Of a stretch of DNA of 64,000 bases, positions 49,000-64,000 are shown in pieces (the first letter of the stretch is position 1; each line of letters opens with the position of its first letter). Made by a program: the position numbers and the translations under genes. The notes under the pieces were generated by a model. It was given only the letters and a program-made list of their open reading frames with translations. It did no database searches and was not told the DNA's origin. The stretch covers positions 512,001 to 576,000 of the forward strand of contig OZ220691.1 of assembly GCA_965116475.1 (NCBI GenBank), read 5' to 3'. This stretch comes from Gemmatimonadota bacterium. Lineage in GTDB: Bacteria; Gemmatimonadota; Gemmatimonadetes; Palauibacterales; Palauibacteraceae.

Positions 49000-49050
49000 C
49001 AGCCTGAAACGCCGACCTCGGCGAGGCCGGGTGTCAGGTGAATACCGTAT
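49000..49050 (+). repeat. Imperfect-hairpin repeat, copy A (empty IS1111 target-like site), left edge of the defence island
   Basis: 44/51 identities plus a 3-nt indel versus 63462-63515; CCTGA...TCAGG dyad. Confidence 0.85.
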
Positions 49051-49173
49051 CAGAACATCCTCAGGCACTAATGCCGGCGCGACTGGCTGTCGAGCAATTG
49101 CCTTACATTTACATTCCGTTTCATAGTACGATCCCAGACCGTCCCCTGCCCACATCACCTCTCGATAGCAATC

Positions 49174-50043
49174 TCACTTCCGTTGTCTTGACACCTTTAT
49201 CGTTCCGTCCTTCCCCTTGCCTTCTTCTTCGTTTGTATCGGCAGTTTTCCTCTGAAACATCGTACGAAAGCCTGGACCACGCACCCAACTGAATGTGGCC
49301 CCTACGAGCGCACTCGCCACTGCAGCTACCGACGTCGCTAACAATATTGTGGAATCGAAGCTGTCTCTAGCAACTGCATCTCCTACTCCGCCTAGTTCGC
49401 TACTGACGATGGCAACGGTGCCGGCGACCATCGATACTAATCCCGCCGCTGTTACAAGTCGCAAACGCTGAATCCTCGCTCTACGTTCTTCGTATCTCTT
49501 TAGTTGGTTGACCCAGCGCTGGGCCGCAGCACGTTGCGTTTCCTTTCCAAGTATCAGCGCGATCGATTGGAGTCGGTCCGGAGGTGTGTAGTCGTACATA
49601 TCGATGTGAAACATGTTACTCGCCATATCCCAGCGCTTCTCTTCCGCATATGACCGCAGACTGTGTAGCGCCGAGATTACGGCCGTCTTTGGCAATCCGA
49701 GTTTCAGCTTTGCTAGCTCATCTCTAAGGATTAGCAGACTAACCTGAAACTCGGGATCGTCATCTCGATCTTGCTCCAACAGATCCACACATTTATTCAG
49801 GAGTCCATGGAGGCGCGTAAATCGGTGACTCTTAGAGATGTACCTCATCCACAGAATATATGATGCTCTTACAATTCCAACGATTGCAGTCGCTTCAATG
49901 GCAACAACAACGTTTACAGGACCGTCTCGCCATAAACCTAATGTTAGAATATATATTGACGCCAACAACCACGAGACGGCGCGTATGCCGCGGTCCAGTT
50001 TCTCGTCGATCAGACCCGAAAAGTAGTGTTCAAGGAGACTCAT
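49174..50043 (-). CDS. Hypothetical membrane protein (two TM pairs flanking a soluble region)
   Basis: ATG 50043 with GAGG; lower GC; last gene of the co-oriented defence cluster. Confidence 0.6.
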   Translation of the reverse strand: MSLLEHYFSGLIDEKLDRGIRAVSWLLASIYILTLGLWRDGPVNVVVAIEATAIVGIVRASYILWMRYISKSHRFTRLHGLLNKCVDLLEQDRDDDPEFQVSLLILRDELAKLKLGLPKTAVISALHSLRSYAEEKRWDMASNMFHIDMYDYTPPDRLQSIALILGKETQRAAAQRWVNQLKRYEERRARIQRLRLVTAAGLVSMVAGTVAIVSSELGGVGDAVARDSFDSTILLATSVAAVASALVGATFSWVRGPGFRTMFQRKTADTNEEEGKGKDGTIKVSRQRK

Positions 50044-50095
50044 CGGCAAACCTCGTCCGTGTGTGCTTTGAGGGAATCCGCATGCGATGTTGACT

Positions 50096-50962
50096 TCATA
50101 GTTTCCACTCAGGATGGCGAATTGAATCATAGAACTCCACGCATGGAGCCGCGGGAGGGCAAAGCCCCAGTCGCTGCCGCCCACCATCCAATAGGGACGC
50201 CAGCTCGTCATAATACTGCCCTTCGCCGTCCCACGCTTCCGTCGCGTCGGCGGCCAGCAACTCAAGGCGTCGACGATAGGCGTACGAGACCGTGTCTGCT
50301 ACCTGGATGATTGGAGAATGCTCAGATTTGATCGGGAACGGCGTGTTTATGATCTGATTGAAACGGTCGTTGGTGCTCCACTCCTTCCATACCCGTACGT
50401 TGCGGCCCTTACGTCGTCTTGTGATCCTTTTCTGGTACAGGCCGTCGAACCATGGATCGCCTGCGTAAATGGCGTCCGAGAACGCTGGCATAAGGCGTTT
50501 GTTGTCGTCCATCACGACCACGGTGTGCCCCTTGTTGCGAGTGAGGAGTTGCATCTTTTTTTGTACAAGAGACATGGTGAACATAGCAGCTAGGAGCCAA
50601 GGATCTTTGTTCACCGCGGGGAAGTCGGTCGAACAGTCAAGAGCTTCCCGCGTGGCGTCGAAAGACAGTCCAATCCCGAACACCTTGCCACCGTCCGCGA
50701 CCGCTAACCCGCAGATGTCCTGAAGGAATTCCTTGCGATCAACCGCAGATATTCTCCCCCAGGCGCCGCGGCCGTTGATGAACTGACTGGTCTTGAGTTC
50801 GCTCCGTCGATATCCTGGATACCGTGCCAGCATCTCCCGTATCATTTCGCGGACGATGTGCGTCCGGAGGCGCAATTTGGTAGCATCCACCATCACTCCA
50901 CACATGACGAACACGTCACTCTGATCGGTTTGGCCACTCTCATCGACATATAGGAACTTCAT
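50096..50962 (-). CDS. DUF3800 domain protein
   Basis: LYVDESG, ELK, D(D), S.....IQVAD. Confidence 0.85.
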   Translation of the reverse strand: MKFLYVDESGQTDQSDVFVMCGVMVDATKLRLRTHIVREMIREMLARYPGYRRSELKTSQFINGRGAWGRISAVDRKEFLQDICGLAVADGGKVFGIGLSFDATREALDCSTDFPAVNKDPWLLAAMFTMSLVQKKMQLLTRNKGHTVVVMDDNKRLMPAFSDAIYAGDPWFDGLYQKRITRRRKGRNVRVWKEWSTNDRFNQIINTPFPIKSEHSPIIQVADTVSYAYRRRLELLAADATEAWDGEGQYYDELASLLDGGRQRLGLCPPAAPCVEFYDSIRHPEWKL

Positions 50963-51121
50963 CCCCTCCGAACCCTCCTCACTCGGTAGCCAGTCCGATC
51001 TCGCACAGCGAGCGTGCCGGCAGTTCGAGAGGACTCGCTCCGCCCTTCACGCCGCGGGTCGTCGAGCGACCCCAAGCCTCGCCCTTCGCACCCACAGCAT
51101 GGCACCCCTGCGACTCGTCCT

Positions 51122-53212
51122 TCACCTTCCCTCCAGTTCCAGCGCTTGTCGCACCAGTCTCAACGCCGGCCCGACATCTTCTTTACGTCGCAGGTCGACC
51201 AACACACCTCCATCGTACCTCGATCCCACGAGGAATTTCCAACGCCTCGCATCCCGTGCGATCCCGTCATCATCTTCGATCTCGTTGACCTCTGGCGCCA
51301 TTAGCAGCAACAGCCTCCCCACTCGCGGCAGCACCTCCACAAAGAACTCTTGAGCATGATAGCTGATCGACTGACCCTCCGCGATTTCCACGATCACCGA
51401 ATCCAACTGTTTGATCTCCTCTCTCACCACACCAAGCAGTTCTCGAGCGTGGCTATTCATCTTTACCTTCTCGACGCTCCCTCGCTTCGACCGCCTGACG
51501 AGATCCTCATACTTCGCCTTCTCCAGCAGCTCCGGTGCCACCGCCAGGCGCGGCCAAATCGCCAAGGTGCGGCGACACAACGTCACACCCCGCTCTCGCA
51601 TTTGAGCCGCAGTCCACACGTTCTGCTCCCTCACAAACCGATTCAAACGGACCGCACTCTCTGCGAAGCCACCCTTGATTGTCTTTTTCTCCTCGAAGGA
51701 TCGATCCGACATCTCACTGTTATACCCAGTCAATGTCAGGTTCCCGAGCCGGTGCAGCCATTCCTCCTGTATCACCTTCCAATCTGATCCGAGCATCGCT
51801 TGCCAAGCAGTGGGGAGTCGCGCGTTCTGTGGCATAATATGTTCAATCGAATACTCACTCGTATCGGTTACTTCCTTGACATTATGATTCTCCAACCGCT
51901 CCAAGAGGACGCGACAGACTCTCTTCCCGTAGATGTTCTGTTCAAGCAGCTGCGTTTCGAACTCCTGATTTTGCGGAAATCTGTAGTTCTTTGACTGGCG
52001 TGCCAATCCGACCTTGAGGCTGTCCAATGGCCCCGTGTCCTGAATCTGGTGCGCCAATCTAGCGAAGGTACTCCAATAACCTCGGGTCTGGAGTCCGCAG
52101 ATTGCACGGCGAAACACATAGCTTTCCAGCAGATCCAAAGCTTCGATGAACTCCTCAGTTCGCAGTGTCTTGAGTCTCTCGTGACAATCGTAGAGGCGCA
52201 TTACCAGGATCGCAGGAACGTCAACCAACCTCCGGAGCCGACGCAGGGCTGGGCGGAGGTTTTTGTCGATAACGCCTCTACTGAGACTGAAAGCCGCGTA
52301 ATACCGGGCATATCGAAGCATCTCCACCAGCGCCTCCTCCAAGTCGCCAGCTTCTGCGCATAGCGTATCGAAGGCGCGGCGGAACGCATGATAGATCTCG
52401 TCGGCTCGACCCTGTTTCGCCGCCTCAGTCTTAAGGGCCACGTAGTCTCGGAAGAAGCTATTCGATCGGTCGCCATGCCCCTGAAATAGCAATTCGATCT
52501 TGTGCCAGTACTGTTCATACAGTTTCGTTTGCTCTCGCTCCGGGAGCCCCATGAGAACGAAGTTTCGTATTAGATCAGAGGGGCTGAGGTCGACGCCCGT
52601 TGAATTCAAGCTCTCGAATATCGCTTGCGGGTCATCATGCGAGTGCAATCGCACATCCACCACGTCAAGACGCTTGATGCCCCTATAGATTCTCTGTGGA
52701 TCCACTTCCGCCATGCGGCCCTGAAAGTAGCTGTAGTTTTCTCGAATGCGTGCGGACTCGGTTGAGGGGGGTTCGGTCTCATCAAGGATGGCGGTCAAGG
52801 TCTCGTGGTCGTGGCGCCGGAGGACGAGTTTTGGGCGGTCGGGATCCGGCAGTGTGGGGTTACGCAGGAACTGCCTGTCCAGATTATCTCCCGTCAGGTA
52901 AGCGTCCTCATACTCGGACCGCGTTACGAGGTCCCGGAGGGCAGCCGCCATAAGGACCACGGTGGTGAAGCGCTGCTGGCCGTCGATGAGCAGCCATCGT
53001 TGAAGGGACGCCTCGGCGTCGTGCGAAGGAGCGTATACGATCGAGCCAAGAAAATGCCGTGCGTCGGAGGGAGCGTCAGCAACGGCCAAGACATCCTGCC
53101 AGAGTTGTTCGCATTGCTCCGCAGTCCAGCTGTAGTCGCGCTGGAAGACGGGGATGAGGTATTGCCGCTGGCCGTCGATTAGCCTGATCAGAGGGTTATC
53201 AGTGGCTTGCAT
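51122..53212 (-). CDS. GmrSD-like DUF262 + DUF1524 (HNH) protein with C-terminal extension
   Basis: IP.FQRDYSW, LIDGQQR, IFESLNSTG..L...DLIRN, SIEHIMPQ, LGNLTL..YN. Confidence 0.9.
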   Translation of the reverse strand: MQATDNPLIRLIDGQRQYLIPVFQRDYSWTAEQCEQLWQDVLAVADAPSDARHFLGSIVYAPSHDAEASLQRWLLIDGQQRFTTVVLMAAALRDLVTRSEYEDAYLTGDNLDRQFLRNPTLPDPDRPKLVLRRHDHETLTAILDETEPPSTESARIRENYSYFQGRMAEVDPQRIYRGIKRLDVVDVRLHSHDDPQAIFESLNSTGVDLSPSDLIRNFVLMGLPEREQTKLYEQYWHKIELLFQGHGDRSNSFFRDYVALKTEAAKQGRADEIYHAFRRAFDTLCAEAGDLEEALVEMLRYARYYAAFSLSRGVIDKNLRPALRRLRRLVDVPAILVMRLYDCHERLKTLRTEEFIEALDLLESYVFRRAICGLQTRGYWSTFARLAHQIQDTGPLDSLKVGLARQSKNYRFPQNQEFETQLLEQNIYGKRVCRVLLERLENHNVKEVTDTSEYSIEHIMPQNARLPTAWQAMLGSDWKVIQEEWLHRLGNLTLTGYNSEMSDRSFEEKKTIKGGFAESAVRLNRFVREQNVWTAAQMRERGVTLCRRTLAIWPRLAVAPELLEKAKYEDLVRRSKRGSVEKVKMNSHARELLGVVREEIKQLDSVIVEIAEGQSISYHAQEFFVEVLPRVGRLLLLMAPEVNEIEDDDGIARDARRWKFLVGSRYDGGVLVDLRRKEDVGPALRLVRQALELEGR

Positions 53213-53267
53213 GAGGGCTCCGGTCGTTGCAGTGCATTAGCGGGCCGAAGGAAAGGCCGTTGCCATG

Positions 53268-56200
53268 CTAGGTTGGGGTTCGCCGGTATGCGAGGGCAAA
53301 CACAGTATCGCCGAGCCAGCGCTTGAAGTCGGTGTTGTCTACGAACTGCTTGAACAGCTCGGTGTCGTCCTTCATGATGCTCGTCATCACGCGGGCGAGA
53401 GCGCGGTCGTGCTCGATTCGGGCGTTCTCGCGGTCCGAGTTCTCCCGGGCGTTCTTGAAGGCCGGGTCCTGCGCCACCTTGGCCGGGATCGTCTCGGTGA
53501 TCATCTCTTGGACGCGGTCATCGTGCTCCCACTCGATCGCGCCGAACAGGTCGTTGAACTCGTCGATGATCCGGGACAGGCGGTCGATCTCGGGGTCGGG
53601 GCGCCCTCCCCCGTTGACGCCGGGCACCGGCTCGATTTCGGCGTCCTCGTCGGGGAGGATGATCTTCTGCATCGCTTTCTTCTCGACGCGGTAGCTGTCC
53701 ATGTCGATCGTTTCGAGGATGCCCTTCGAGAGGTCCTCCTCCGCGGGCGCCGGCAGCTTCGGGATCAGGAAGTTCAGGAAGATCGAGCGCTCTTCCCAGC
53801 CGGGGTTGCTGTAGGGGAGGATCGAAGACAGGAAGCCGTAGGTCCGCACGAAGCCGCGGGCCTTGCTCTTGAACGCGACCTGTTCGTCTTCGTCCAGGTC
53901 CTCGATGTACACGGCGACGCACTGGTCCAGGATGGGATCGAGTTGGTCGCGGTCCGCTCCGTCCAGATAGCCCTTCACGAACGCCGTGACCTGCTCCAGC
54001 CGGTACACGTGGGCGGCGTCCAGATCCGCCTGGAGGTCGTGGAGCTTGTTGGGGTCCGTCTCGTCGGCCAGGACCGTCGCGCGGTAGTAGTCGGCGAAGG
54101 CCTCGGTGATCGTGTCCGTGTCGTTCAGGAAGTCCAGCACGAACACGTCGTGCTTCTTGGGGTGCGACCGGTTGAGTCGCGACAGGGTCTGGACCGCCTT
54201 GATCCCGGAGAGCGTCTTGTCGACGTACATGGTGTGGAGCAGCGGCTCGTCGTAGCCGGTCTGGAACTTGTCCGCGCAGATGAGGAAGCGGTACGGGTCC
54301 TCCTGGAAGGTCTCGGCGATCTTGCTCGGCGGGAAGCCGTTCAGCGTGGCCTCGCTCACCTTTTTCCCGCCGTACTCGTGTTCGCCCGAGAAGGCGACGA
54401 TCGCCCCGTAGCGGCTCTTCCGCTCCTCCAGGTAGTCGCGGATGGCGTGGAAATACTGGATCGCGCGCTCGATCCCGTTGGTCACGACCATCGCGCGCGC
54501 CTTGCCGTCGATCTTGTGCTGGGCCAGCACCTGTTCGTGGAAGTGGTCGACCATGATCTCGGCCTTGAGGCGGATCGCATGGTCGTGTCCCTCGACGTAG
54601 CGGCGGAGCTTCTTGCGGGCCTTCCGGACGTCGAACTCCGGGTCGTCCTCCACCGTCTTGGCGAGCTTGTAGTAGCTCTTGACCGGCGTGTAGTGCCGGA
54701 GCACGTCCAGGATGAAGCCCTCCTCGATCGCCTGCTTCATGCTGTAGGTGTGGAAGGCGCGGTGCCGGACGGTCCCGTCGCTCTGCGGATCCGGCTCGCC
54801 GAAGATCTCGAGCGTCTTGTTCTTCGGCGTGGCGGTGAAGGCGAAGTAGCTGGCGTTGGGGAGCAGCTTCCGCGACTCGATCAGACGGTTGATCTGGTCC
54901 TCGTACGTCTCCTCCTCCTCCGCTTCGCCCGCCTCGCCCAGCGCGCTCGCCATGGCTGCGCTGGTCTTCCCTCCCTGACTCGAGTGCGCCTCGTCGATGA
55001 TGATCGCGAAGGTGCGCCCGCGCTGCTCGTTGCCGATCTCGTCGAGAATGAAGGGGAACTTCTGGATCGTCGAGATGATGATCTTCTTCCCCTGCTCGAT
55101 GAACGTGCGCAGATCGCCCGACTTCTCGGCGTGCCCCACCGTCGAGCTCACCTGCGCGTACTTCCTGATCGTGTCGCGGATCTGCCGGTCGAGGATGCGG
55201 CGGTCGGTGACGACGATGATCGAGTCGAACACGGGCGCGCCGTCCTTCTCCAGCCGGATCATCTGGTGCGCCAGCCAGGCGATCGAGAAGCTCTTGCCGC
55301 TGCCGGCGGAGTGCTGGATCAGGTAGCGGCTTCCCGCCCCGTGCTCGCCGGCGTGGGCCAGCAGTTGGCGCACGACGTCGAGCTGGTGGTAGCGCGGCCA
55401 GATCTGGACTCGCTTCTTCCTCCCCGTCTTTCGGTCCTTTGACGCCACGACCTGCGCATAGTTTTCAAGCATGTTGGTCAGGCTCTCCCGGGCCAGCACC
55501 CGACGCCACAGGTAGTCCGTGGCGAGCCCGTGGGGGTTGGGAGGATTCCCCGCCCCGTCGTTCCAGCCGCGGTTGAACGACAGGAACCAGGAGGCCTTCC
55601 CCTTCAGGTGCGTGCAGAAGTGGATCTCGTTCTCGTCGACCGCGAAGTGCGCCAAGCAGCGCCCCAACCGGAACAGCGGCTCGCGCTGACTACGGTCCCG
55701 CCGGTACTGCCGCATCGCGTCGCTGACCGTTTGTTTCGTCAGGCGGTTCTTGAGTTCGAACGTGAAGACCGGGAGGCCGTTGATGAAGAGTCCGATGTCG
55801 AGAGACCGCTGGGTCTCGTCGCGGCTGTACCGAAGCTGGCGCGTGACCGTGAAGCGGTTCTGCTCGAAGCGCTGCCTGGCCTTGACGTTTTCGGCCGAGG
55901 GCGTGCCGTAGAAGAGGTCGAGGTCGTGCGGGCCGTGCTTGATGCCGTTGCGGAGGACATCGATGGTGCCGCGCTTGTTGATCTCGCCTTGGAGCCGGGC
56001 AAGGAACTTGCGGCGGGTGGGGCCGTCTTCCGTGAGACGGAGGGCGGCGGCGGCTTCAGGTTGCGTGATGTAGAGGAAAGTGCGGAGTTGAACGAGGTCG
56101 ACGCAGTACTCGCGGTTGTAGTCGTGATGGTTACCTTGAGACCAACCTACGCCGCCATGGCGTGCGGGCGGTTCTCGTACGGTCGGTCCTGACGGAGGAT

Positions 56201-56270
56201 CGCAGGGGTCTCCAGTCAGAGCCTTGCAAATCAACCGCTCGAAGCTCCGTTCATTCATATCGGTTGTCAT
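53268..56270 (-). CDS. hsdR: Type I restriction enzyme R subunit
   Basis: D..LFINGLP...ELKN, QHSAGSGKS, IDEAHSSQ, FTATPK, KFQTGYDEP, QTLSRLNR. Confidence 0.95.
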   Translation of the reverse strand: MTTDMNERSFERLICKALTGDPCDPPSGPTVREPPARHGGVGWSQGNHHDYNREYCVDLVQLRTFLYITQPEAAAALRLTEDGPTRRKFLARLQGEINKRGTIDVLRNGIKHGPHDLDLFYGTPSAENVKARQRFEQNRFTVTRQLRYSRDETQRSLDIGLFINGLPVFTFELKNRLTKQTVSDAMRQYRRDRSQREPLFRLGRCLAHFAVDENEIHFCTHLKGKASWFLSFNRGWNDGAGNPPNPHGLATDYLWRRVLARESLTNMLENYAQVVASKDRKTGRKKRVQIWPRYHQLDVVRQLLAHAGEHGAGSRYLIQHSAGSGKSFSIAWLAHQMIRLEKDGAPVFDSIIVVTDRRILDRQIRDTIRKYAQVSSTVGHAEKSGDLRTFIEQGKKIIISTIQKFPFILDEIGNEQRGRTFAIIIDEAHSSQGGKTSAAMASALGEAGEAEEEETYEDQINRLIESRKLLPNASYFAFTATPKNKTLEIFGEPDPQSDGTVRHRAFHTYSMKQAIEEGFILDVLRHYTPVKSYYKLAKTVEDDPEFDVRKARKKLRRYVEGHDHAIRLKAEIMVDHFHEQVLAQHKIDGKARAMVVTNGIERAIQYFHAIRDYLEERKSRYGAIVAFSGEHEYGGKKVSEATLNGFPPSKIAETFQEDPYRFLICADKFQTGYDEPLLHTMYVDKTLSGIKAVQTLSRLNRSHPKKHDVFVLDFLNDTDTITEAFADYYRATVLADETDPNKLHDLQADLDAAHVYRLEQVTAFVKGYLDGADRDQLDPILDQCVAVYIEDLDEDEQVAFKSKARGFVRTYGFLSSILPYSNPGWEERSIFLNFLIPKLPAPAEEDLSKGILETIDMDSYRVEKKAMQKIILPDEDAEIEPVPGVNGGGRPDPEIDRLSRIIDEFNDLFGAIEWEHDDRVQEMITETIPAKVAQDPAFKNARENSDRENARIEHDRALARVMTSIMKDDTELFKQFVDNTDFKRWLGDTVFALAYRRTPT

Positions 56271-57707
56271 GAGTGGGTATGGTTGAGAGCCGGAGCGGGA
56301 TCCGACTCTTCCCAGTCCTCGGCAAGAGTCGCCTTGGCATCTCGGTGGAGATCGCCTTCGAGGCTGTGGCGTCGGGGCAGCGAAGCCGCGGCCTCTCGCA
56401 CGTCGAGCTTGCCGGTGACGACATCGGCGATCAGGCGGCTGCGGTATTCTCGCAGCAACTCAACCTGTCGTTCCGCGCGGGACAAAGCCACATCCAAGTC
56501 CTGCTTCCTTCGGTGTATCTCTGTAACGAGCCTCTGCTGTTCGGCGAAAGGGGGCTTGAGCACCCGTAGCGCTCCGATGTCTTCCATGTTAAAGTGACCC
56601 ACAGTAGTTCCTTGTGTCGCTAACCGGACATGGTCTCTGGGTGGTCCCGCGTAGATCATGTAAACGAGTAGATTTGGATCATATTCGCCTCGCCTCGACC
56701 GCATTAGTACCGTGCGCTGCCCTAGGCAAACGTTTGCATCCTTGGGCACAACACATGCTTCGCCAACAGGAGCTTCTCGCGTGAAGATCACGTCACCAGG
56801 CTCCGGCTTGGTTCGCCTTGTCCACGCCTGAAACGCCTCCTTGCTGGTGCAGTAGGTGCCTTCCCATCGGAGGCTCCCTCCCCGAACAGCCGTCGTTCGC
56901 ACGACTCGATACTCGCTATCGTCAACCTCAGGCGCTGTCCTGTGCTCGCAGTCCACCAACCGGTCAAGAACCCACTTCAGGGCAACCACATCCCAATGCT
57001 CAGGTACTTTCCCCATCCACTCCACACCGGAGTCCTTGTAAGCCGGGTACGGCTGGCCGGTTCGGGCATCGATCTGGCCTGTGACGGCTTGATGGATGAT
57101 GGCCCGCTTCTGTTCCTCCAGGAGTTCGATCAACCGTTCCTTTGCGCTGACGTAGCGTCGGATGCGCCAGTCAACGTGGTCGAGGAAGCGGACGATCGCT
57201 GCTTGCTCCGAACTCGGCGGTACGGGAACCAGTTGGTCCCCGAAGGCCGCAAAGCGGAAGTCGGTCGATCGCTCCCGAACACCCCGAGAGAGAGCCGAGA
57301 TCCATTGGCTCCGAGCCATCTCGCGGATGCATGACGCGTAGTAGTGCGAGTTCGTAGCGCCGTGTCTCGGCGCACAAACCGAATACACCGGTGTGCACTT
57401 ACCATCCGAGTCGGAGACGCCGCAGGCACCGGCAAAAGCGTCCATCGTGTGGATCACGAGATCACCACGGCGAACTCCCTGATAACCAATCTCCTTCAGT
57501 GACTCCGTGAAGCCTGAAGTTCGGCGGTTCTTTCGAAGCGTCACTGTGCCATCGCGAAAACACGTGACTACGTCGTCACTCGAGGTGACCGGTCGATCCA
57601 GCTTTGCAAACAACGACTTCGACCGCATCACTGACCAATGCTCTGGCACCGTGCCAAGCCATTCCACACCGGAATCCCGGAGGGAATCGTAGGGTCTCGC
57701 TCCGCTA

Positions 57708-57715
<8 letters not shown>
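56267..57715 (-). CDS. hsdS: Type I RM specificity subunit
   Basis: Two TRDs with repeats DSGVEWLGTVPEHW / DSGVEWMGKVPEHW, PP..EQ, VTGK.DVR. Confidence 0.95.
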
Positions 57716-59849
<2,134 letters not shown>

Positions 59850-60206
59850 GTTTCCCCTGGTGGCTCCTTGGAATCGTCAAGTATGCTTGAGCGTTGCAGA
59901 TCTCACCACGACCACTCAAGGATCCGTTGGCAGATGCAGGTACGGCAGGGAATGCACCTACGGCAAGTGCCCCCCAAAAAACGGGGGGGCTGACAAGCGC
60001 CTCGTACGCGAACCAGCCCGCAGGCGAGGTTCCCATTCTCTTCTGCAAGGCAGCACAGCCCGCCAGTCCCAAACCCATCTGAAGCGCTGACCTCGGCGTC
60101 AACCAATGCCGTACTTGTACACCTAGCTAGGAGCCGCTGTTGACAACCTGCGTGGAATCCGCTTTCATGTGTGCTTCCGACGACCACCGATTCCATTCTC
60201 GACGCC

Positions 60207-61019
60207 ATGAACACCTTTAAGCCCAAGAGTCTAGCTGAATTCGTCGACAACGTGAACGAGCTCGATCAGTCGATTGACGGCCCTCTTTGGTATAGAGGTG
60301 CGTCGAAGTTATCGTACCGCCTCCTACCGAGCCTGTATCGTCCCCGTCCCACGAGCACTCCTCCGCTTAGCCTTTCCGAGCTCGAACAGCGACTCGTCGA
60401 CCGCTTTCGCGAGCGTAGCATCCCCTATCACGCACACCCTCTAGATCCTGACGATCTCGAGATCCTGTTTCTAATGCAGCACTTCGGCGTCCCGACTCGT
60501 TTGCTGGATTGGACCGAAAATCCATTCTTTGCACTCTTCTTCGCGCTTCGGCACGTGTCCTTCCGCCGGGGCACGCACGGCGACATGTTCTGCACGCACG
60601 ACGCCACCGTCTGGGTGCTTGACGCTGCCGCCTGGAACCGCGCAGCCCTGAAACACCTTAGCTATGATGTCGGACCACTTGACCCTAGTCACGAGAGTGT
60701 AATCCCTTACCGTTCCATCGGGAGCATCCACGAGCTCCCGTCACCTCCCGTAGCCTTATACGGTGCCCACACAAGTTCTCGGATCGTTGCCCAACAGGGA
60801 ACCTTTGTGCTATTTGGGAAAGAAACGCGGCCCATGGAAACGATAGCAGCCCGCTCCATGTTCCCAACGGAATGTCTAGTCCGCCTCGTTCTCACTCGCG
60901 GCGTGATTCGAGAACTCCGTCGTGCCCTCTTCCGTCACGGCATCACCGAAGCCGCGCTGTTTCCTGACTTGGAAGGTCTGGCGCGTGACCTCAAACACAC
61001 TTTTGGGTTTTCGCTATGA
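60207..61019 (+). CDS. FRG domain protein
   Basis: WYRG, MQHFGVPTRLLDWTENP..ALFFA, RIVAQQG.F, LFPDLEG. Confidence 0.9.
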   Translation: MNTFKPKSLAEFVDNVNELDQSIDGPLWYRGASKLSYRLLPSLYRPRPTSTPPLSLSELEQRLVDRFRERSIPYHAHPLDPDDLEILFLMQHFGVPTRLLDWTENPFFALFFALRHVSFRRGTHGDMFCTHDATVWVLDAAAWNRAALKHLSYDVGPLDPSHESVIPYRSIGSIHELPSPPVALYGAHTSSRIVAQQGTFVLFGKETRPMETIAARSMFPTECLVRLVLTRGVIRELRRALFRHGITEAALFPDLEGLARDLKHTFGFSL

Positions 61020-62083
61020 TTTCACCGCCTCGATTTAAGATTCGGCAACATGATGCAAGGACTCTCTCTTGGTGGCGGCATCGCCGCGATCAGATTGATA
61101 TGAACCCACCATATCAACGGCGCGGTCGGTTATGGTCTTCGGCCGATAAGGCGTATCTTGTGGACTCGATTCTAAACGAATTCGATATTCCAAAGTTCTA
61201 TGTCGCCGATTTCACGTGGGGCAACTCACAGTTGAACGAAGCTCAGCTTCCTTATGCCATCATCGATGGCAAACAACGATTCGAAGCCATCTTTGATTTC
61301 TACGATGGCAAGATTCAACTGCAAGATGATTTTGAGTATCGATCGAACCCTAAACACAAGCTGGGCGGGCTGAGCTATCGCGACCTGCGCGACAACTACG
61401 CGGATGTAGCGGAAGTATTCGACAATTTCGTCCCACATGTCATGGGAGTGTACGCTGAGGAGGAAGGCAAAATCAACGATTTGTTTGTCCGCCTGAATCG
61501 TAGTAAGCCGCTGACCGGCGCCGAGATCCGAAACGCCATGGGAGGACCAGTACCAGCGATCCTACGTGAATTGGCGAACCATGAGTTTTTTGCAGAGATT
61601 ATACGATTTAACGTGAAGCGCGGCCAAGACCTAAACGCCGTAGCTAAGATATTGTTGTTTGAATTCTATCATGAACTGCGAGATACAAAGAAACGCAACT
61701 TGGACGAGTTCGTGGAGAGCGTCGGGGCGGATAAACAAGAGCGATTGGAATTGGCGGGACGGAAGATCGTCGATGTTCTCGATGATATGCGTGATGTGTT
61801 TTTGCCGCGAGATCGGTTGTTGTCGTCATCGGGTATCGTGCCGGTGTACTATTGGTTTATGCGCGAACGAACACGTAATGAACTGCCCCGAGTTCGACGA
61901 TTTATTGTTGGCTTTGAAGAAAAGCGGAAAGAGCACCGCCGAAGACTTCGCGACCAGCCCGGGATGGAGGAGGTGGATCACGAACTGACGGAGTACGATA
62001 ACTACAACCGAAGCACGAATGACGTGTCAAGCCACCGCGGGCGAGTTAGGATCCTCACGCGGCGTTTCAAGAAGTCACCCTAA
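61016..62083 (+). CDS. Stand-alone DUF262 domain protein
   Basis: P.YQR..LW, VDSIL...IP, IIDGKQR, F.RLN..KPL...EIRNA; ATGA overlap with FRG; no HNH motif. Confidence 0.88.
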   Translation: MISPPRFKIRQHDARTLSWWRHRRDQIDMNPPYQRRGRLWSSADKAYLVDSILNEFDIPKFYVADFTWGNSQLNEAQLPYAIIDGKQRFEAIFDFYDGKIQLQDDFEYRSNPKHKLGGLSYRDLRDNYADVAEVFDNFVPHVMGVYAEEEGKINDLFVRLNRSKPLTGAEIRNAMGGPVPAILRELANHEFFAEIIRFNVKRGQDLNAVAKILLFEFYHELRDTKKRNLDEFVESVGADKQERLELAGRKIVDVLDDMRDVFLPRDRLLSSSGIVPVYYWFMRERTRNELPRVRRFIVGFEEKRKEHRRRLRDQPGMEEVDHELTEYDNYNRSTNDVSSHRGRVRILTRRFKKSP

Positions 62084-62469
62084 TACGTTGCTGTCGCTAT
62101 GCGCGAGGTTCCCGAGCCACACGTGGCCTTGTGCGCTTCGGGGCATTGATGGGCTCGCCGCGCTTCGGTGAGCGAGATTACGCTGAAGGAGGCATGGTTG
62201 ATGGATGATGAACGGAGTGATGCGCAAGTGCTGGCGTCGGACCACGGTAGGATTCAGGCTCTCTTGACATTGAATGAACTTCTCCTGTACAGAATGCCCA
62301 AGGACGATTTGCGCGCTGTACGACAGCTTGTAGACGGTTTGCGGATGGACTAGCGCATGCTCGCAACGAACTCGGAAGGGGTCCTTGAGGCACCCGAGTT
62401 CCCCCGCCACTATTATGAGGGGTACACGGAGCAGTTTGACCGCTTTATTGACCGAGTCAGCCGCTAGCA

Positions 62470-63383
62470 TGTTCCTGACCCGGAGTCGGTGCGACAGATT
62501 CACCGTCCTGACTACACCTTGTTGGCGCCGGTGACCTCCATCGGCGTCCGGCCGCGAGTCCAGCGTCCGGTGTGGGCGCGGTCCTCGTTGTAGTAGCGAA
62601 GGTATCTCTCCAGATCGCGGCGGAGACCCAGGAGGCCGGGTACGAGGTACTGGGCGAAGGCGGGCTTCCAGCACTCCTCGAGGATCGTGCCGTGCACCCG
62701 CTCCACACAGCCGTTGGTCTGGGGCCGTCCGCTGCGGATGAACCGGTGTTCCGCGCCGAGGCTCGCCACCGTGTCCCGGAACGCCTGCGCCCGGAACTCG
62801 TTCCCGTTGTCGGTCAGCACCGCGCCCAGCTCCCGGCCGAACCGCTTCAGATCTCCGGCCACCCGCCGCGCCAGACGGGAGGCGTAGCGGGCGGCCGGGT
62901 TGTGCGGTGTCACATGCAACTCGGCCCACGTATACGCGCTCCCCACGTCGATCGCCGTGTACTGCCACACCACCCCCCGGGTGCCCCTGAGCTTGCCGAC
63001 CCGGAAACAGTCCAACTGCACCAGCTCCCCGGGCTCGTCCACCTCCAGACACCACCCGCTGCTCCACCAAGGCCGGCGTGGCGTTCGGCATCCGCAGGTG
63101 CCGTCGCTCCCGTGGCCTCAGCGCCTCCGGCCCGTAACGCTCCAGATCCCGACGCCACCGGTAGAACGTCGCGGGGTGGATCCCCGAGACCTGGCACGCC
63201 TGCCGCACGTTGCCCAACCGCTCGGCCAGCGCCATCGTCCCCAATCGATACCGGTGAAGCATGTCCTCCTAGGTCATGGTGTTGCTCCTGTGGTTCTGAA
63301 ATCCTTGATCAAACTTCAAACCACCGGATGCCATCACCGCACAGGGGGATGCGCCTGTGTCGCTCCATCTCGGAATCAGGACA
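62470..63383 (-). mobile_element. Decayed IS481-family element
   Basis: TGT...ACA ends with ~26-bp imperfect TIRs (TGTTCCTGACCCGGAGTCGGTGCGACA vs reverse complement TGTCCTGATTCCGAGATGGAGCGACA); CTAG near both ends. Confidence 0.85.
62512..63277 (-). pseudogene. IS481 transposase pseudogene
   Basis: ATG-ACC-TAG nonsense at codon 3; HTH (GNVRQAC...TFYRW); frameshifting deletion near 63050; rve domain PGELVQLD...AID...TDNGNEF...PQTNGCVER...YN..R.H. Confidence 0.88.
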
Positions 63384-63461
63384 TGCTAGGTCTTCGAGAG
63401 AAGGGGACCCGGAAGCCTAGGAGGAGCCGGAAGAAGTCAACCCGGAAGGAAATGAAGACGA

Positions 63462-63515
63462 CAGCCTGGACCGCTGCCCGCGGCGAGGCCGCCGGGTGTC
63501 AGGCGACTACCGTAT
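63462..63515 (+). repeat. Imperfect-hairpin repeat, copy B (occupied by IS1111 at its 3' CG), right edge of the island
   Basis: Direct repeat of 49000-49050; similarity stops where the IS end begins. Confidence 0.85.
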
Positions 63516-63563
63516 GTGGACGCCCGGAAATGGGCGAGTACGGATTCGGAACCGAGTCGGTGG

Positions 63564-63721
63564 CAGTCGGGTCAGGTACTGTCGTATGTCCGGCCTCTTG
63601 CTGCAGCCCCTTTTTGGGCCGCGGGCCCGTATGGTGTTCGTGAGATCGGATCCAGATCGTACTTGCGGGCTCTCAGGCCCTCCGGTAATCATTGGTTCTT
63701 CCGACCCCGTCTTGCTGACTG
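63564..63721 (-). ncRNA. Predicted bridge/seek RNA of the IS1111 element
   Basis: Two internal loops closed by hairpins. Loop strands TGATTACCG/AAGTACG resemble the target; ACATACG matches the IS end and CCATACG is its paired strand. Boundaries approximate. Confidence 0.7.
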
Positions 63722-63803
63722 TGTGCCCTTACCCGTTTCTCGCGTCCTGCTGTCCACCCCTCCCTCCAGCGCCTTTGCTTTCGCTGTTTCTCTCGCCGCC
63801 CGC

Positions 63804-64000
63804 TCAGGCGACAACTCGAACTCGGTAAGCCTCCTTTCGTGTGGCCAGCGCCCAGACCCTCCGCGCCGTCCTGTTGGCGACCGCCACCGCGACCACTTTC
63901 TTCGGCTTCCGCGCCAATACCCCGGCCAGCCACGGATCCGTGATCTCGCCGCGTCGGCTCGCGTGGCTGAACGACCGCCATGGCTTCCCGTGACCAGGAG
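63804..64000 (-). pseudogene. IS110/IS1111 transposase C-terminus (two apparent +1 frameshifts)
   Basis: Manual translation LLVTG/AMAVVQ/HASRRGEITDPWLAGVLARKPKKVVAVAVANRTARRVWALATRKEAYR*, the typical IS110 A.ANK.AR..W tail. Confidence 0.82.

What the first reader, a model, noticed from the sequence alone, without database searches (positions are those of the whole stretch)
63504..63803. Readable bridge/seek RNA in an IS1111 end: four guide segments and a CG core
Established: IS110/IS1111 recombinases use a non-coding RNA with target- and donor-binding loops, encoded downstream of the transposase in IS1111-type elements. Seen on the minus strand, loop 1: GGTCGGA/TCCGATC stem, TGATTACCG (63691-63683), GGGC/GCCC hairpin, AAGTACG (63664-63658). 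TGATTACCG matches the flank at the insertion junction, CGACTACCG (63504-63512; 7/9, both differences allow G:U), and TGAATACCG at the empty site (49039-49047; 8/9). AAGTACG is complementary to CGTA(T) at the empty site. Loop 2: CCATACG (63634-63628), GGCC/GCGGCCC hairpin, ACATACG (63589-63583), the exact complement of the IS end CGTATGT (63511-63517). All four end in CG, implying a CG core rather than the CT of IS621. Inference: a member with a CG core and directly readable specificity, although this transposase copy appears frameshifted.
Basis: partly seen in the sequence, partly recalled or inferred. Interest (0 to 1): 0.8.

Follow-up and report, generated by a model that had tools for sequence, protein, structure and literature searches.

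The report
Dead IS1111 element, readable guide RNA
A broken copy of an IS1111-type jumping gene still carries the gene for the small guide RNA that told its enzyme where to insert, and the guide letters spell out its own insertion site; such systems are already known, so this is a tidy new example rather than a surprise.

Summary
The region is the 291-nt 3' non-coding end (window 63513-63803, minus strand) of an IS1111-family insertion sequence, and it has the two-loop layout of a bridge/seek RNA.

The far end lies 433 bases beyond the window. It reads ...GGGCGTCCAC-TCCAT-CG-TACTTGTACAC, not CCATA-CG-TATCAG as predicted. The flank CGTACTTG is the exact complement of the loop-1 guide CAAGUACG.

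Evidence from relatives:
- In 88 homologous copies the loop-1 guides covary with both flanks (0 of 2000 permutations each).
- The loop-2 segments and the IS ends stay constant.
- The joined flanks occur uninterrupted 56 times in 19 of 114 related genomes.

This copy is dead. Transposase residues 71-223 are missing, 60 nt are inverted, and no other IS110-family transposase lies in the genome.

A CG after the insertion point is tabulated for four of five studied IS1111 members (PMC13604230 Table 1), so it is not distinctive. The site at 49039 is only a half-site.

Verdict: real, correctly interpreted, a new member of a known kind. One side lead: a sub-lineage targets CA with a UG guide.

The parts
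63380..63512 (+). Copy of a ~120-nt genomic repeat that is the insertion target (right target flank in IS orientation). Ends ...GGTGTCAGGCGACTAC-CG.
   Evidence: flank repeated at 4 other places in the genome. (alignment of copies). (uninterrupted form in relatives).
63511..63512 (.). CG dinucleotide at the right-end junction (the target-borne copy; a second CG lies at the far junction, L001 2533-2534).
   Evidence: Family counts: right-end junction CG in 63 of 79 copies, left-end junction CG in 45 of 45.
63513..63525 (-). Right end of the IS: 3-bp terminal extension (ATA on the minus strand, 63513-63515) and sub-terminal inverted repeat (plus strand GTGGACGCCC, 63516-63525).
   Evidence: the reverse complement GGGCGTCCAC lies at L001 2518-2527; conserved in all aligned copies.
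63513..63803 (-). 291-nt non-coding region downstream of the transposase stop codon (63804-63806); holds the bridge/seek RNA gene.
   Evidence: ORF 63804..63998 minus, stop included. (conserved in homologues).
63642..63707 (-). Target-binding stem-loop. Stems at 63707-63701 with 63649-63642 and at 63695-63692 with 63655-63652. [quoted passage not shown] Hairpin 63680-63666. 3' guide CAAGUACG 63665-63658 (same sense as the left flank).
   Evidence: consensus structure, 98.8% of cells paired. (guides covary with flanks). (the guides spell the repeat consensus CAAGTACGGTAATCA).
63583..63636 (-). Donor-binding region. 5' segment CACCAUACG 63636-63628 (complement of the left end CG-ATGGAG, with one bulged base and one mismatch). 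Two-part hairpin. 3' segment GACAUACG 63590-63583 (same sense as the right end ...CCACATA-CG).
   Evidence: Invariance of the 3' segment is partly by construction, because it lay inside the search pattern.
63804..64000 (-). C-terminal remnant of the transposase gene (residues ~250-341 of the 341-aa homologue, with a frameshift). It continues past the window to the left IS end at window-equivalent 64433 (L001 2534).
   Evidence: PF02371, 22.1 bits. (tblastn pieces aa 288-341, 250-283, 1-70; aa 224-243 inverted)..

Best explanation
This is the right (3') end of a 921-bp, internally deleted relic of an IS1111-family insertion sequence. The element lies on the minus strand, from window 63513 to window-equivalent 64433 (L001 1614-2534). 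It sits inside a copy of a ~120-nt genomic repeat.

Its 291-nt non-coding region still encodes an intact-looking bridge/seek RNA of about 135-150 nt. In an active relative the RNA would bind the DEDD/RuvC-type transposase and work as follows:
- Its first internal loop reads the target. The 5' guide UGAUUACCG pairs with the top strand at CG-GTAATCA. The 3' guide CAAGUACG pairs with the bottom strand opposite CAAGTA-CG.
- Its second region reads the joined ends of the excised circle: right end ...CCACATA-CG and left end CG-ATGGAG....
- Recombination then happens at the shared C(G), with no target duplication.

Shown here: the anatomy, the family membership of intact homologues, the guide-flank covariation, the existence of the uninterrupted target, and the death of this copy.

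Inferred from IS621, ISEc11, ISPa11 and ISKpn4 work: that the agent is RNA, that it binds the transposase, and that a circle with a junction promoter is formed. A candidate promoter reads TTGCCC, then 17-18 nt, then TA|CGAT across the joined ends of the family consensus, read off.

This copy cannot move. Transposase residues 71-223 are gone and no other IS110-family transposase lies in the 3.62-Mb genome.
For: Anatomy:
- A 10-bp sub-terminal inverted repeat (12 bp in the family consensus).
- A 7-bp left extension CGATGGA and a 3-bp right extension ATA. These are the lengths given for IS1111 members in PMC11187229 (Introduction passage).
- A long non-coding region downstream of the transposase gene.

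Family:
- The full-length homologue (1410 bp, 92% identical) encodes a 341-aa protein with PF01548 plus PF02371.
- It scores 318 bits (cut-off 140) on NF033542, 'IS110 family RNA-guided transposase'.
- It matches the ISCro4 and IS621 transposase structures.

Covariation, over 88 unique copies:
- 3' guide against left junction (45 copies, 23 guide classes): mean class-median contiguous identity 6.33, against 2.70 when permuted; 0 of 2000 permutations reached it.
- 5' guide against right junction (79 copies, 44 classes): 7.57 of 10, against 4.70; 0 of 2000.

Structure:
- 25 consensus pairs, 98.8% of cells paired.
- 20-51% paired when the partners are slid.
- 5 pairs show compensatory change (4 of 500 shuffles reach that).

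Empty site: TGTACAAGTA-CG-GTA(A/T/G)TC(A/G)CCTGACACC, with up to 3 mismatches, gives 56 matches in 19 of 114 family genomes and 0 for the reversed control. Seven matches have no mismatch.

Boundaries: Logan contigs of related copies break away from this locus at L001 2534 and at the two rearrangement breakpoints, 2178 and 2235.

Guide order: the top-strand guide lies 5' of the bottom-strand guide, as reported for IS1111 members (PMC11187229 section 9).
Against: - There is no direct evidence that an RNA is made here. The only RNA-library signal is a 357-nt Logan contig of a related copy covering L001 1671-2027, and it could be DNA carry-over.
- The 300-nt region as a whole folds no better than shuffles (z = -0.26).
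- No Rfam family matches it; the only hit is a chance snoRNA match at E = 0.82.
- The scaffold is so conserved that stem covariation is modest: further pair types 15 against 14.8 in shuffles, with 326 of 500 shuffles as high.
- The left-end donor segment needs a bulged base and a mismatch. It cannot be tested by covariation because the ends never vary.
- The 3' donor segment was fixed by my search pattern.
- 13 of 44 5'-guide classes showed fewer than 6 contiguous pairs with their right flank. Some of these are nested or rearranged copies.
- 34 of the 79 copies with a right junction had no left junction in the DNA held.
Confidence: 0.9

Rival explanations
1. The RNA gene is not a relic but still in use. 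It would be transcribed and would serve a transposase supplied in trans, or act as a regulatory small RNA, as proposed for Ssr9 next to ISPpu9 in Pseudomonas putida.
For: - Stems and guides of this copy are intact and 92% identical to those of full-length copies.
- A paper listing (PMC12288879, abstract seen) reports free-standing copies of an IS110-family-associated small RNA gene.
Against: - The NF033542 search of the whole single-contig genome (96% complete) finds only the three fragments of this broken gene, none over the cut-off.
- tblastn with the intact homologue finds nothing else.
- The -35-like hexamer of the inferred junction promoter is changed in this copy (TCGCCC for TTGCCC, read off).
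- No circle can form without the enzyme.
Confidence: 0.05
2. The short matches between the non-coding region, the flanks and the ends are chance resemblances in G+C-rich DNA. The region would be ordinary spacer or decayed sequence.
For: - Single matches are only 7-9 nt long.
- The whole-region fold is not better than shuffles.
- There is no Rfam hit.
Against: - Both guides covary with flanks across 23 and 44 guide classes, with 0 of 2000 permutations each.
- The guides spell the consensus of an independently found repeat.
- The variable segments sit in one internal loop between conserved stems.
Confidence: 0.01
3. Target choice in this family is made by the non-coding region acting as DNA (for example a single-stranded or synapsed DNA segment pairing with the target), or by the protein. 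On this reading it is not made by a transcript.
For: Sequence covariation alone cannot tell an RNA guide from a DNA strand of the same sequence. No RNA data exist for this family.
Against: - Homologous IS1111 members (ISEc11, ISPa11, ISKpn4) yield RNase-sensitive 80-150-nt species from the same region. These co-purify with the transposase and are needed for transposition (PMC11187229 sections 8-9).
- G:U-type wobble positions are tolerated in guide-flank pairs here. This fits RNA-DNA pairing, though it is not proof.
Confidence: 0.03

Closest known systems
ISPa11 (IS1111 family; inserts in Pseudomonas aeruginosa REP sequences; seekRNA shown experimentally, PMC11187229)
   Same: - Transposase followed by a long 3' non-coding region that gives the guide RNA.
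- Sub-terminal inverted repeats with 7/3-bp extensions.
- Top-strand guide 5' of the bottom-strand guide.
- Target is a short genomic repeat.
- CG directly after the insertion point (GG*CG, PMC13604230 Table 1).
   Different: - Different target (CAAGTA-CG-GTAATCA in a ~120-nt repeat of an uncultured bacterium) and different host phyla.
- No experimental data for this family.
- I did not compare its sequence with ISPa11, because no ISPa11 sequence was available from a tool.
ISKpn4 / ISPst6 / ISPa25 (IS1111-attC group)
   Same: Same architecture and guide order. CG after the insertion point (AA*CG, AG*CG). The target is a repeated, structured element that punctuates gene modules.
   Different: Their target is the integron attC site. 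Here the repeat punctuates a defence-gene island, and I found no integron integrase (crude ORF set only).
IS621 bridge RNA (IS110 group; Durrant et al. 2024 PMC11208160; Hiraizumi et al. 2024 PMC11208158)
   Same: - Two-part RNA that reads both strands of target and donor around a shared dinucleotide.
- DEDD/RuvC plus Tnp-domain recombinase. The homologue matches PDB 8wt6 at E = 7e-09 over the Tnp domain.
   Different: - In IS621 the RNA is encoded upstream, in the left end.
- The guide order is reversed.
- The IS621 core is CT, with the second base nearly invariant. Here the first base, C, is the constant one and the second varies (CG mostly, CA in one sub-lineage).
- The inverted repeats are long here (10-12 bp, against 2-3 bp).

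Membership tests
IS1111 group of the IS110 family | DEDD/RuvC-like N-terminal domain (PF01548) plus C-terminal Transposase_20 domain (PF02371); protein of about 330-350 aa | tested here: met
   Met for the full-length homologue L007:1798-2820:- (341 aa): PF02371 at 85.9 bits, PF01548 at 52.6 bits, NF033542 at 318 bits against a cut-off of 140. The window's own copy keeps only fragments: PF02371 at 22.1 bits, no PF01548 hit, NF033542 fragments of 51, 22.9 and 19.6 bits.
IS1111 group of the IS110 family | Longer non-coding region downstream of the transposase gene | tested here: met
   291 nt downstream (63513-63803). At most 45-95 nt upstream, depending on the start codon.
IS1111 group of the IS110 family | Sub-terminal inverted repeats (usually 11-13 bp) with terminal extensions of 7 bp on the left and 3 bp on the right | tested here: met
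   GTGGACGCCC and its complement form a 10-bp repeat in this copy and a 12-bp one (GTGGACGCCCCC) in the family consensus. Extensions are CGATGGA and ATA. Lengths are as stated in PMC11187229.
IS1111 group of the IS110 family | Site-specific insertion without target duplication | tested here: met
   Left flank + CG + right flank equals a repeat that occurs uninterrupted 56 times in 19 of 114 related genomes. The best uninterrupted copy in the own genome is at G000:C1:579305-579332, with 2 mismatches.
IS1111 group of the IS110 family | seekRNA/bridge RNA with a top-strand match 5' of a bottom-strand match, overlapping at the insertion point, and tracking the target | tested here: met
   The guides at 63691-63683 and 63665-63658 overlap at CG. 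Covariation gave 0 of 2000 permutations for each guide.
IS1111 group of the IS110 family | RNA is made from the non-coding region and binds the transposase; circular intermediate with junction promoter | not testable with these tools
   Only a related copy's contig in one RNA library (weak). The junction promoter is inferred from sequence, read off.
IS110 group proper (IS621-type bridge RNA) | Bridge RNA in the left end, upstream of the recombinase; bottom-strand guide 5' of the top-strand guide; very short (2-3 bp) inverted repeats | tested here: not met
   The RNA region is downstream, the guide order is reversed, and the repeats are 10-12 bp. It works like IS621 but is not of that group.
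Rfam RNA families | Match to a curated covariance model | tested here: not met
   No family reaches E < 0.8 on 62900-64000, either strand.

The most novel reading that the evidence does not exclude
In this family the dinucleotide at the crossover need not be the same in donor and target, and the two junctions inherit it asymmetrically.

One sub-lineage carries UG instead of CG at the core positions of its 5' target guide:
- Its uninterrupted target reads ...CAAGC-CA-GCCTAC... in 12 of 13 sites.
- The right-end junction is CA in 8 of 8 copies.
- The left-end junction is CG, the donor's, in 5 of 5 copies.
- The 3' guide keeps CG (88 of 88 copies).

Over the whole set the left junction is CG in 45 of 45 copies, while the right junction varies (CG 63, CA 9, GG 4, CC 2, TG 1 of 79).

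If these are independent insertions, both strand exchanges in IS1111-type elements fall 5' of the second base. The effective overlap would then be at most 1 nt, the constant C, unlike the 2-nt CT core described for IS621. The second base would be freely programmable through the 5' guide alone.
Probability: 0.3. Interest if true: 0.55.

Novelty: new member of a known kind. Interest (0 to 1): 0.33.

Why it matters
RNA-guided IS110/IS1111 recombinases are being developed as programmable genome-insertion tools. This relic adds nothing by itself.

Its family is more useful. It offers a natural series of at least 44 different 5' guides and 23 different 3' guides on a nearly constant scaffold with constant donor ends. 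The copies are spread through metagenome-assembled genomes labelled Gemmatimonadota, Alphaproteobacteria, Gammaproteobacteria and Acidobacteriota. That makes it a ready-made data set on three questions:
- which guide registers IS1111-type bridge RNAs tolerate;
- which wobble pairs they tolerate;
- which crossover dinucleotides they tolerate.

For annotating this genome, the finding explains a stretch that gene callers would leave blank or call a pseudogene.

Tried and rejected
- Rfam scan of 62900-64000: only a chance snoRNA hit at E = 0.82.
- Whole-region fold: z = -0.26, uninformative in G+C-rich DNA. The local consensus structure was used instead.
I rejected this once the inverted repeat at L001 2518-2527 and the homologues fixed the end at 2534.
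- Own-genome search for the ideal 15-nt target with up to 3 substitutions: no close uninterrupted site except repeat copies at 579314 (3 mismatches) and 580350 (2 mismatches).
- tRNA/tmRNA scan for an attachment-site explanation of the target repeat: none found.
- Earlier notes of this scan: nothing to show.
- Sequencing runs: only Logan contigs could be laid, so nothing can be said about transcript ends, strand or level. Parts without cover mean nothing. Runs with small word shares were not used to name a habitat.
- Handshake-guide analogy with IS621: the two bases after the 5' guides (GA; GG) do not convincingly pair with the partner DNA, and they cannot be tested because the donor never varies. 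Left open.
- Supplementary figures and tables of PMC11187229 and PMC11208160 (seekRNA folds, ISfinder-wide bridge RNA predictions) could not be seen. They may already include a relative of this family.
- I ran no literature search for the CA/UG observation.

Full report
**What is in the window.** On the minus strand an open frame ending at 63804-63806 encodes the C-terminus of an IS110-family transposase. The 291 nt from 63803 down to 63513 are non-coding. The window stops at 64000, so I located it in its genome (G000:C1:512001-576000) and read on in locus L001 (window coordinate = L001 + 61899).

**The element and its ends.**
- The near end reads, plus strand, ...GGCGACTAC-CG-TAT-GTGGACGCCC.
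- The reverse complement of GTGGACGCCC lies at L001 2518-2527. It is followed by TCCAT-CG-TACTTGTACACC.
- Every homologous copy starts CG-ATGGA-GTGGACGCCC and ends GGGCGTCCAC-ATA-CG in IS orientation.
- The element therefore runs from window 63513 to window-equivalent 64433, which is 921 bp.
- It has a 10-bp sub-terminal inverted repeat (12 bp in the family consensus), a 7-bp left extension and a 3-bp right extension. These are the lengths given for IS1111 members (PMC11187229, Introduction passage).
- The true flank, CGTACTTG, is the exact complement of the loop-1 3' guide CAAGUACG.
- Logan contigs of related copies leave this locus exactly at L001 2534. That is independent support for the boundary.

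**This copy is dead.**
- Full-length relatives are 1410 bp. They encode a 341-aa protein with PF01548 and PF02371. That protein scores 318 bits on NF033542, 'IS110 family RNA-guided transposase'.
- Against such a relative (92% identical), the window's copy lacks nt 301-758 and 819-844, and carries nt 759-818 inverted.
- At the protein level, residues 71-223 are missing, 224-243 are inverted, and there is a frameshift near residue 285.
- Logan contigs of two runs that hold the exact locus (X1, X2) bridge both breakpoints without a difference. Either run may be the source sample.
- The whole 3.62-Mb, single-contig genome holds no other match to the family model or to the intact homologue.

**The RNA.** An alignment of 65 distinct homologous regions gives a consensus structure.
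- A 7-bp stem and a 4-bp stem close a large internal loop, which is capped by a short GGC/GCC hairpin.
- Then come a single-stranded stretch, a two-part hairpin, and a second single-stranded stretch.
- On my count, 98.8% of cells pair, against 20-51% when the partners are slid.
- Five of 25 pairs show compensatory change; 4 of 500 shuffles reach that number.
- The scaffold varies little, and one measure is no better than shuffles: further pair types, with 326 of 500 shuffles as high.
- The only hypervariable columns are the two sides of the internal loop.

**Guide-flank covariation.** A pattern scan of genome contigs found 118 stretches. Together with the loci from relatives, these gave 88 unique copies.
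- One spurious row (L081, second match) was dropped.
- Copies lying too close to a locus end were skipped.
- The 3' guide always ends in CG (88 of 88).
- The 3' guide matches the left flank plus CG contiguously. The mean of class medians is 6.33 nt over 23 guide classes (45 copies), against 2.70 when classes are permuted. None of 2000 permutations reached the observed value.
- The 5' guide matches the reverse complement of CG plus the right flank. The mean is 7.57 of 10 positions over 44 classes (79 copies), against 4.70 permuted. Again 0 of 2000 permutations reached it.
- 31 of the 44 classes show at least 6 contiguous pairs beyond the dinucleotide.
- In those 31, the guide carries CG at the core positions in 24. 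The register relative to the stem is 8, 9, 10 or 11 nt in 21, 7, 2 and 1 classes.
- The remaining 13 classes match poorly. Some of them are visibly nested or rearranged.

**The target.**
- Joining the two flanks gives TGTACAAGTA-CG-GTAGTCGCCTGACACC.
- A degenerate form of this, with up to 3 mismatches, occurs uninterrupted 56 times in 19 of 114 genomes of the family (16 of 35 in the same genus). Seven of the matches have no mismatch. The reversed control pattern gives 0.
- A recurrent form among these matches, CAAGTACGGTAATCA, is spelled exactly by the two guides. The guides fit it better than the mutated flank of this copy, which matches at 7 of 9 positions plus two G:U pairs.
- In the own genome the repeat is about 120 nt long and has six recognisable copies. 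Five of them lie between 561 and 586 kb.
- The copy at window 49028-49047 shares only the half on the window's left, so it is not an empty site.
- The best uninterrupted copy is at G000:C1:579305-579332, outside the window.

**The donor side.**
- GACAUACG has the sense of the right end ...CCACATA-CG.
- CACCAUACG is the complement of the left end CG-ATGGAG only if one A is bulged and one mismatch is allowed.
- In the alphaproteobacterial copies this segment reads ...AUAUG, which keeps a G:U pair.
- Both IS ends are invariant, and the 3' segment lay inside my search pattern. The donor assignment therefore rests on position and analogy, not on covariation.

**Comparison with what is known.**
- The architecture, the guide order (top-strand guide 5') and the location are those described for IS1111 members (PMC11187229 sections 6, 8, 9, 13 read).
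- Bridge RNAs were predicted for 93% of the IS1111 entries in ISfinder (PMC11208160, passages).
- A review table lists GG*CG, AA*CG, AA*CG and AG*CG as the insertion points of ISPa11, ISKpn4, ISPst6 and ISPa25, beside GC*CT for IS621 (PMC13604230 Table 1, passage).
- A CG at the crossover is therefore usual in this group.
- The finding is a new member of a known kind.

**Side lead.**
- In one sub-lineage the 5' guide carries UG at the core positions.
- Its uninterrupted target reads ...CAAGC-CA-GCCTAC in 12 of 13 matches.
- The right junction is CA in 8 of 8 copies and the left junction is CG in 5 of 5.
- Over all copies the left junction is CG in 45 of 45. The right junction is CG 63, CA 9, GG 4, CC 2 and TG 1 of 79.
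- If the copies are independent events, the second base is not part of a heteroduplex overlap. IS621 differs here, because its second core base is the nearly invariant one (PMC11208158, passage).
- Independence of the copies was not established. The target is itself a repeat, and some copies may be orthologous.

Noticed in passing
window 49028-64000 and on to G000:C1:585700 (L154): The target repeat punctuates a ~25-kb island of defence-type genes lying between a TonB-dependent receptor gene and a periplasmic binding-protein gene. The island genes include type I restriction HsdR-like, GmrSD, DUF3800, FRG, a second GmrSD_N/DUF262 protein, a PD-(D/E)XK nuclease and DUF429. Repeat copies sit at genome 561028, 575493, 579303, 580365 (opposite strand) and 585641. 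This looks like modules accreted at a repeated site. No tRNA and no integrase were seen in a crude ORF set.
   Followed up: partly
window 62512-63262, minus strand: Directly beside the IS1111 relic lies a second broken transposase: an rve/rve_3 integrase-core ORF (176 aa), with an upstream helix-turn-helix-like part in another frame. This is a frameshifted IS of the IS481/IS3 kind (my label, recalled).
   Followed up: no
L007 2921-3073 (G108:C4): A second, partial left end (the first 154 nt of the IS, 92% identical) lies 10 nt upstream of a full-length copy, in the same orientation. This is a tandem fragment next to an intact element.
   Followed up: no
L012 about 1378-1500 (G110:C1): One copy carries a ~75-nt insertion in its non-coding region. 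The insertion repeats the donor segment and an end-like GGGGGCGTCCATAGACG, as if a second right end had been captured.
   Followed up: no
L008, L051, L078, L084, L104, L105, L144, L146: Sub-lineage with UG at the core positions of the 5' guide. The target dinucleotide is CA (12 of 13 uninterrupted sites), the right junction is CA in 8 of 8 copies, and the left junction is CG in 5 of 5.
   Followed up: partly
alignment A1, columns 79-80 (window 63657-63656): The 3' target guide is followed by AU in nearly all 65 sequences. The guide therefore matches the product left junction (flank + CG + AT of the IS) two bases further than it matches the target. Whether this is a handshake-like contact or just loop sequence cannot be tested, because the left end never varies.
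   Followed up: no
loci L036-L153: Near-identical scaffolds of this IS family occur in metagenome-assembled genomes labelled Longimicrobiales/Gemmatimonadota (most), Paracoccaceae and other Alphaproteobacteria, one Gammaproteobacteria and one Acidobacteriota ('Marinacidobacterium'). Related copies are in the contigs of two runs labelled sponge metagenome that I laid (X3, X4). This suggests spread between phyla sharing a habitat.
   Followed up: no
window 64079-64138 equivalent (L001 2180-2239): The 60-nt segment that is inverted in this copy, relative to all 8 homologues that cover it, sits exactly between the two deletion breakpoints. A single complex rearrangement is likelier than separate events. 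No microhomology analysis was done.
   Followed up: no
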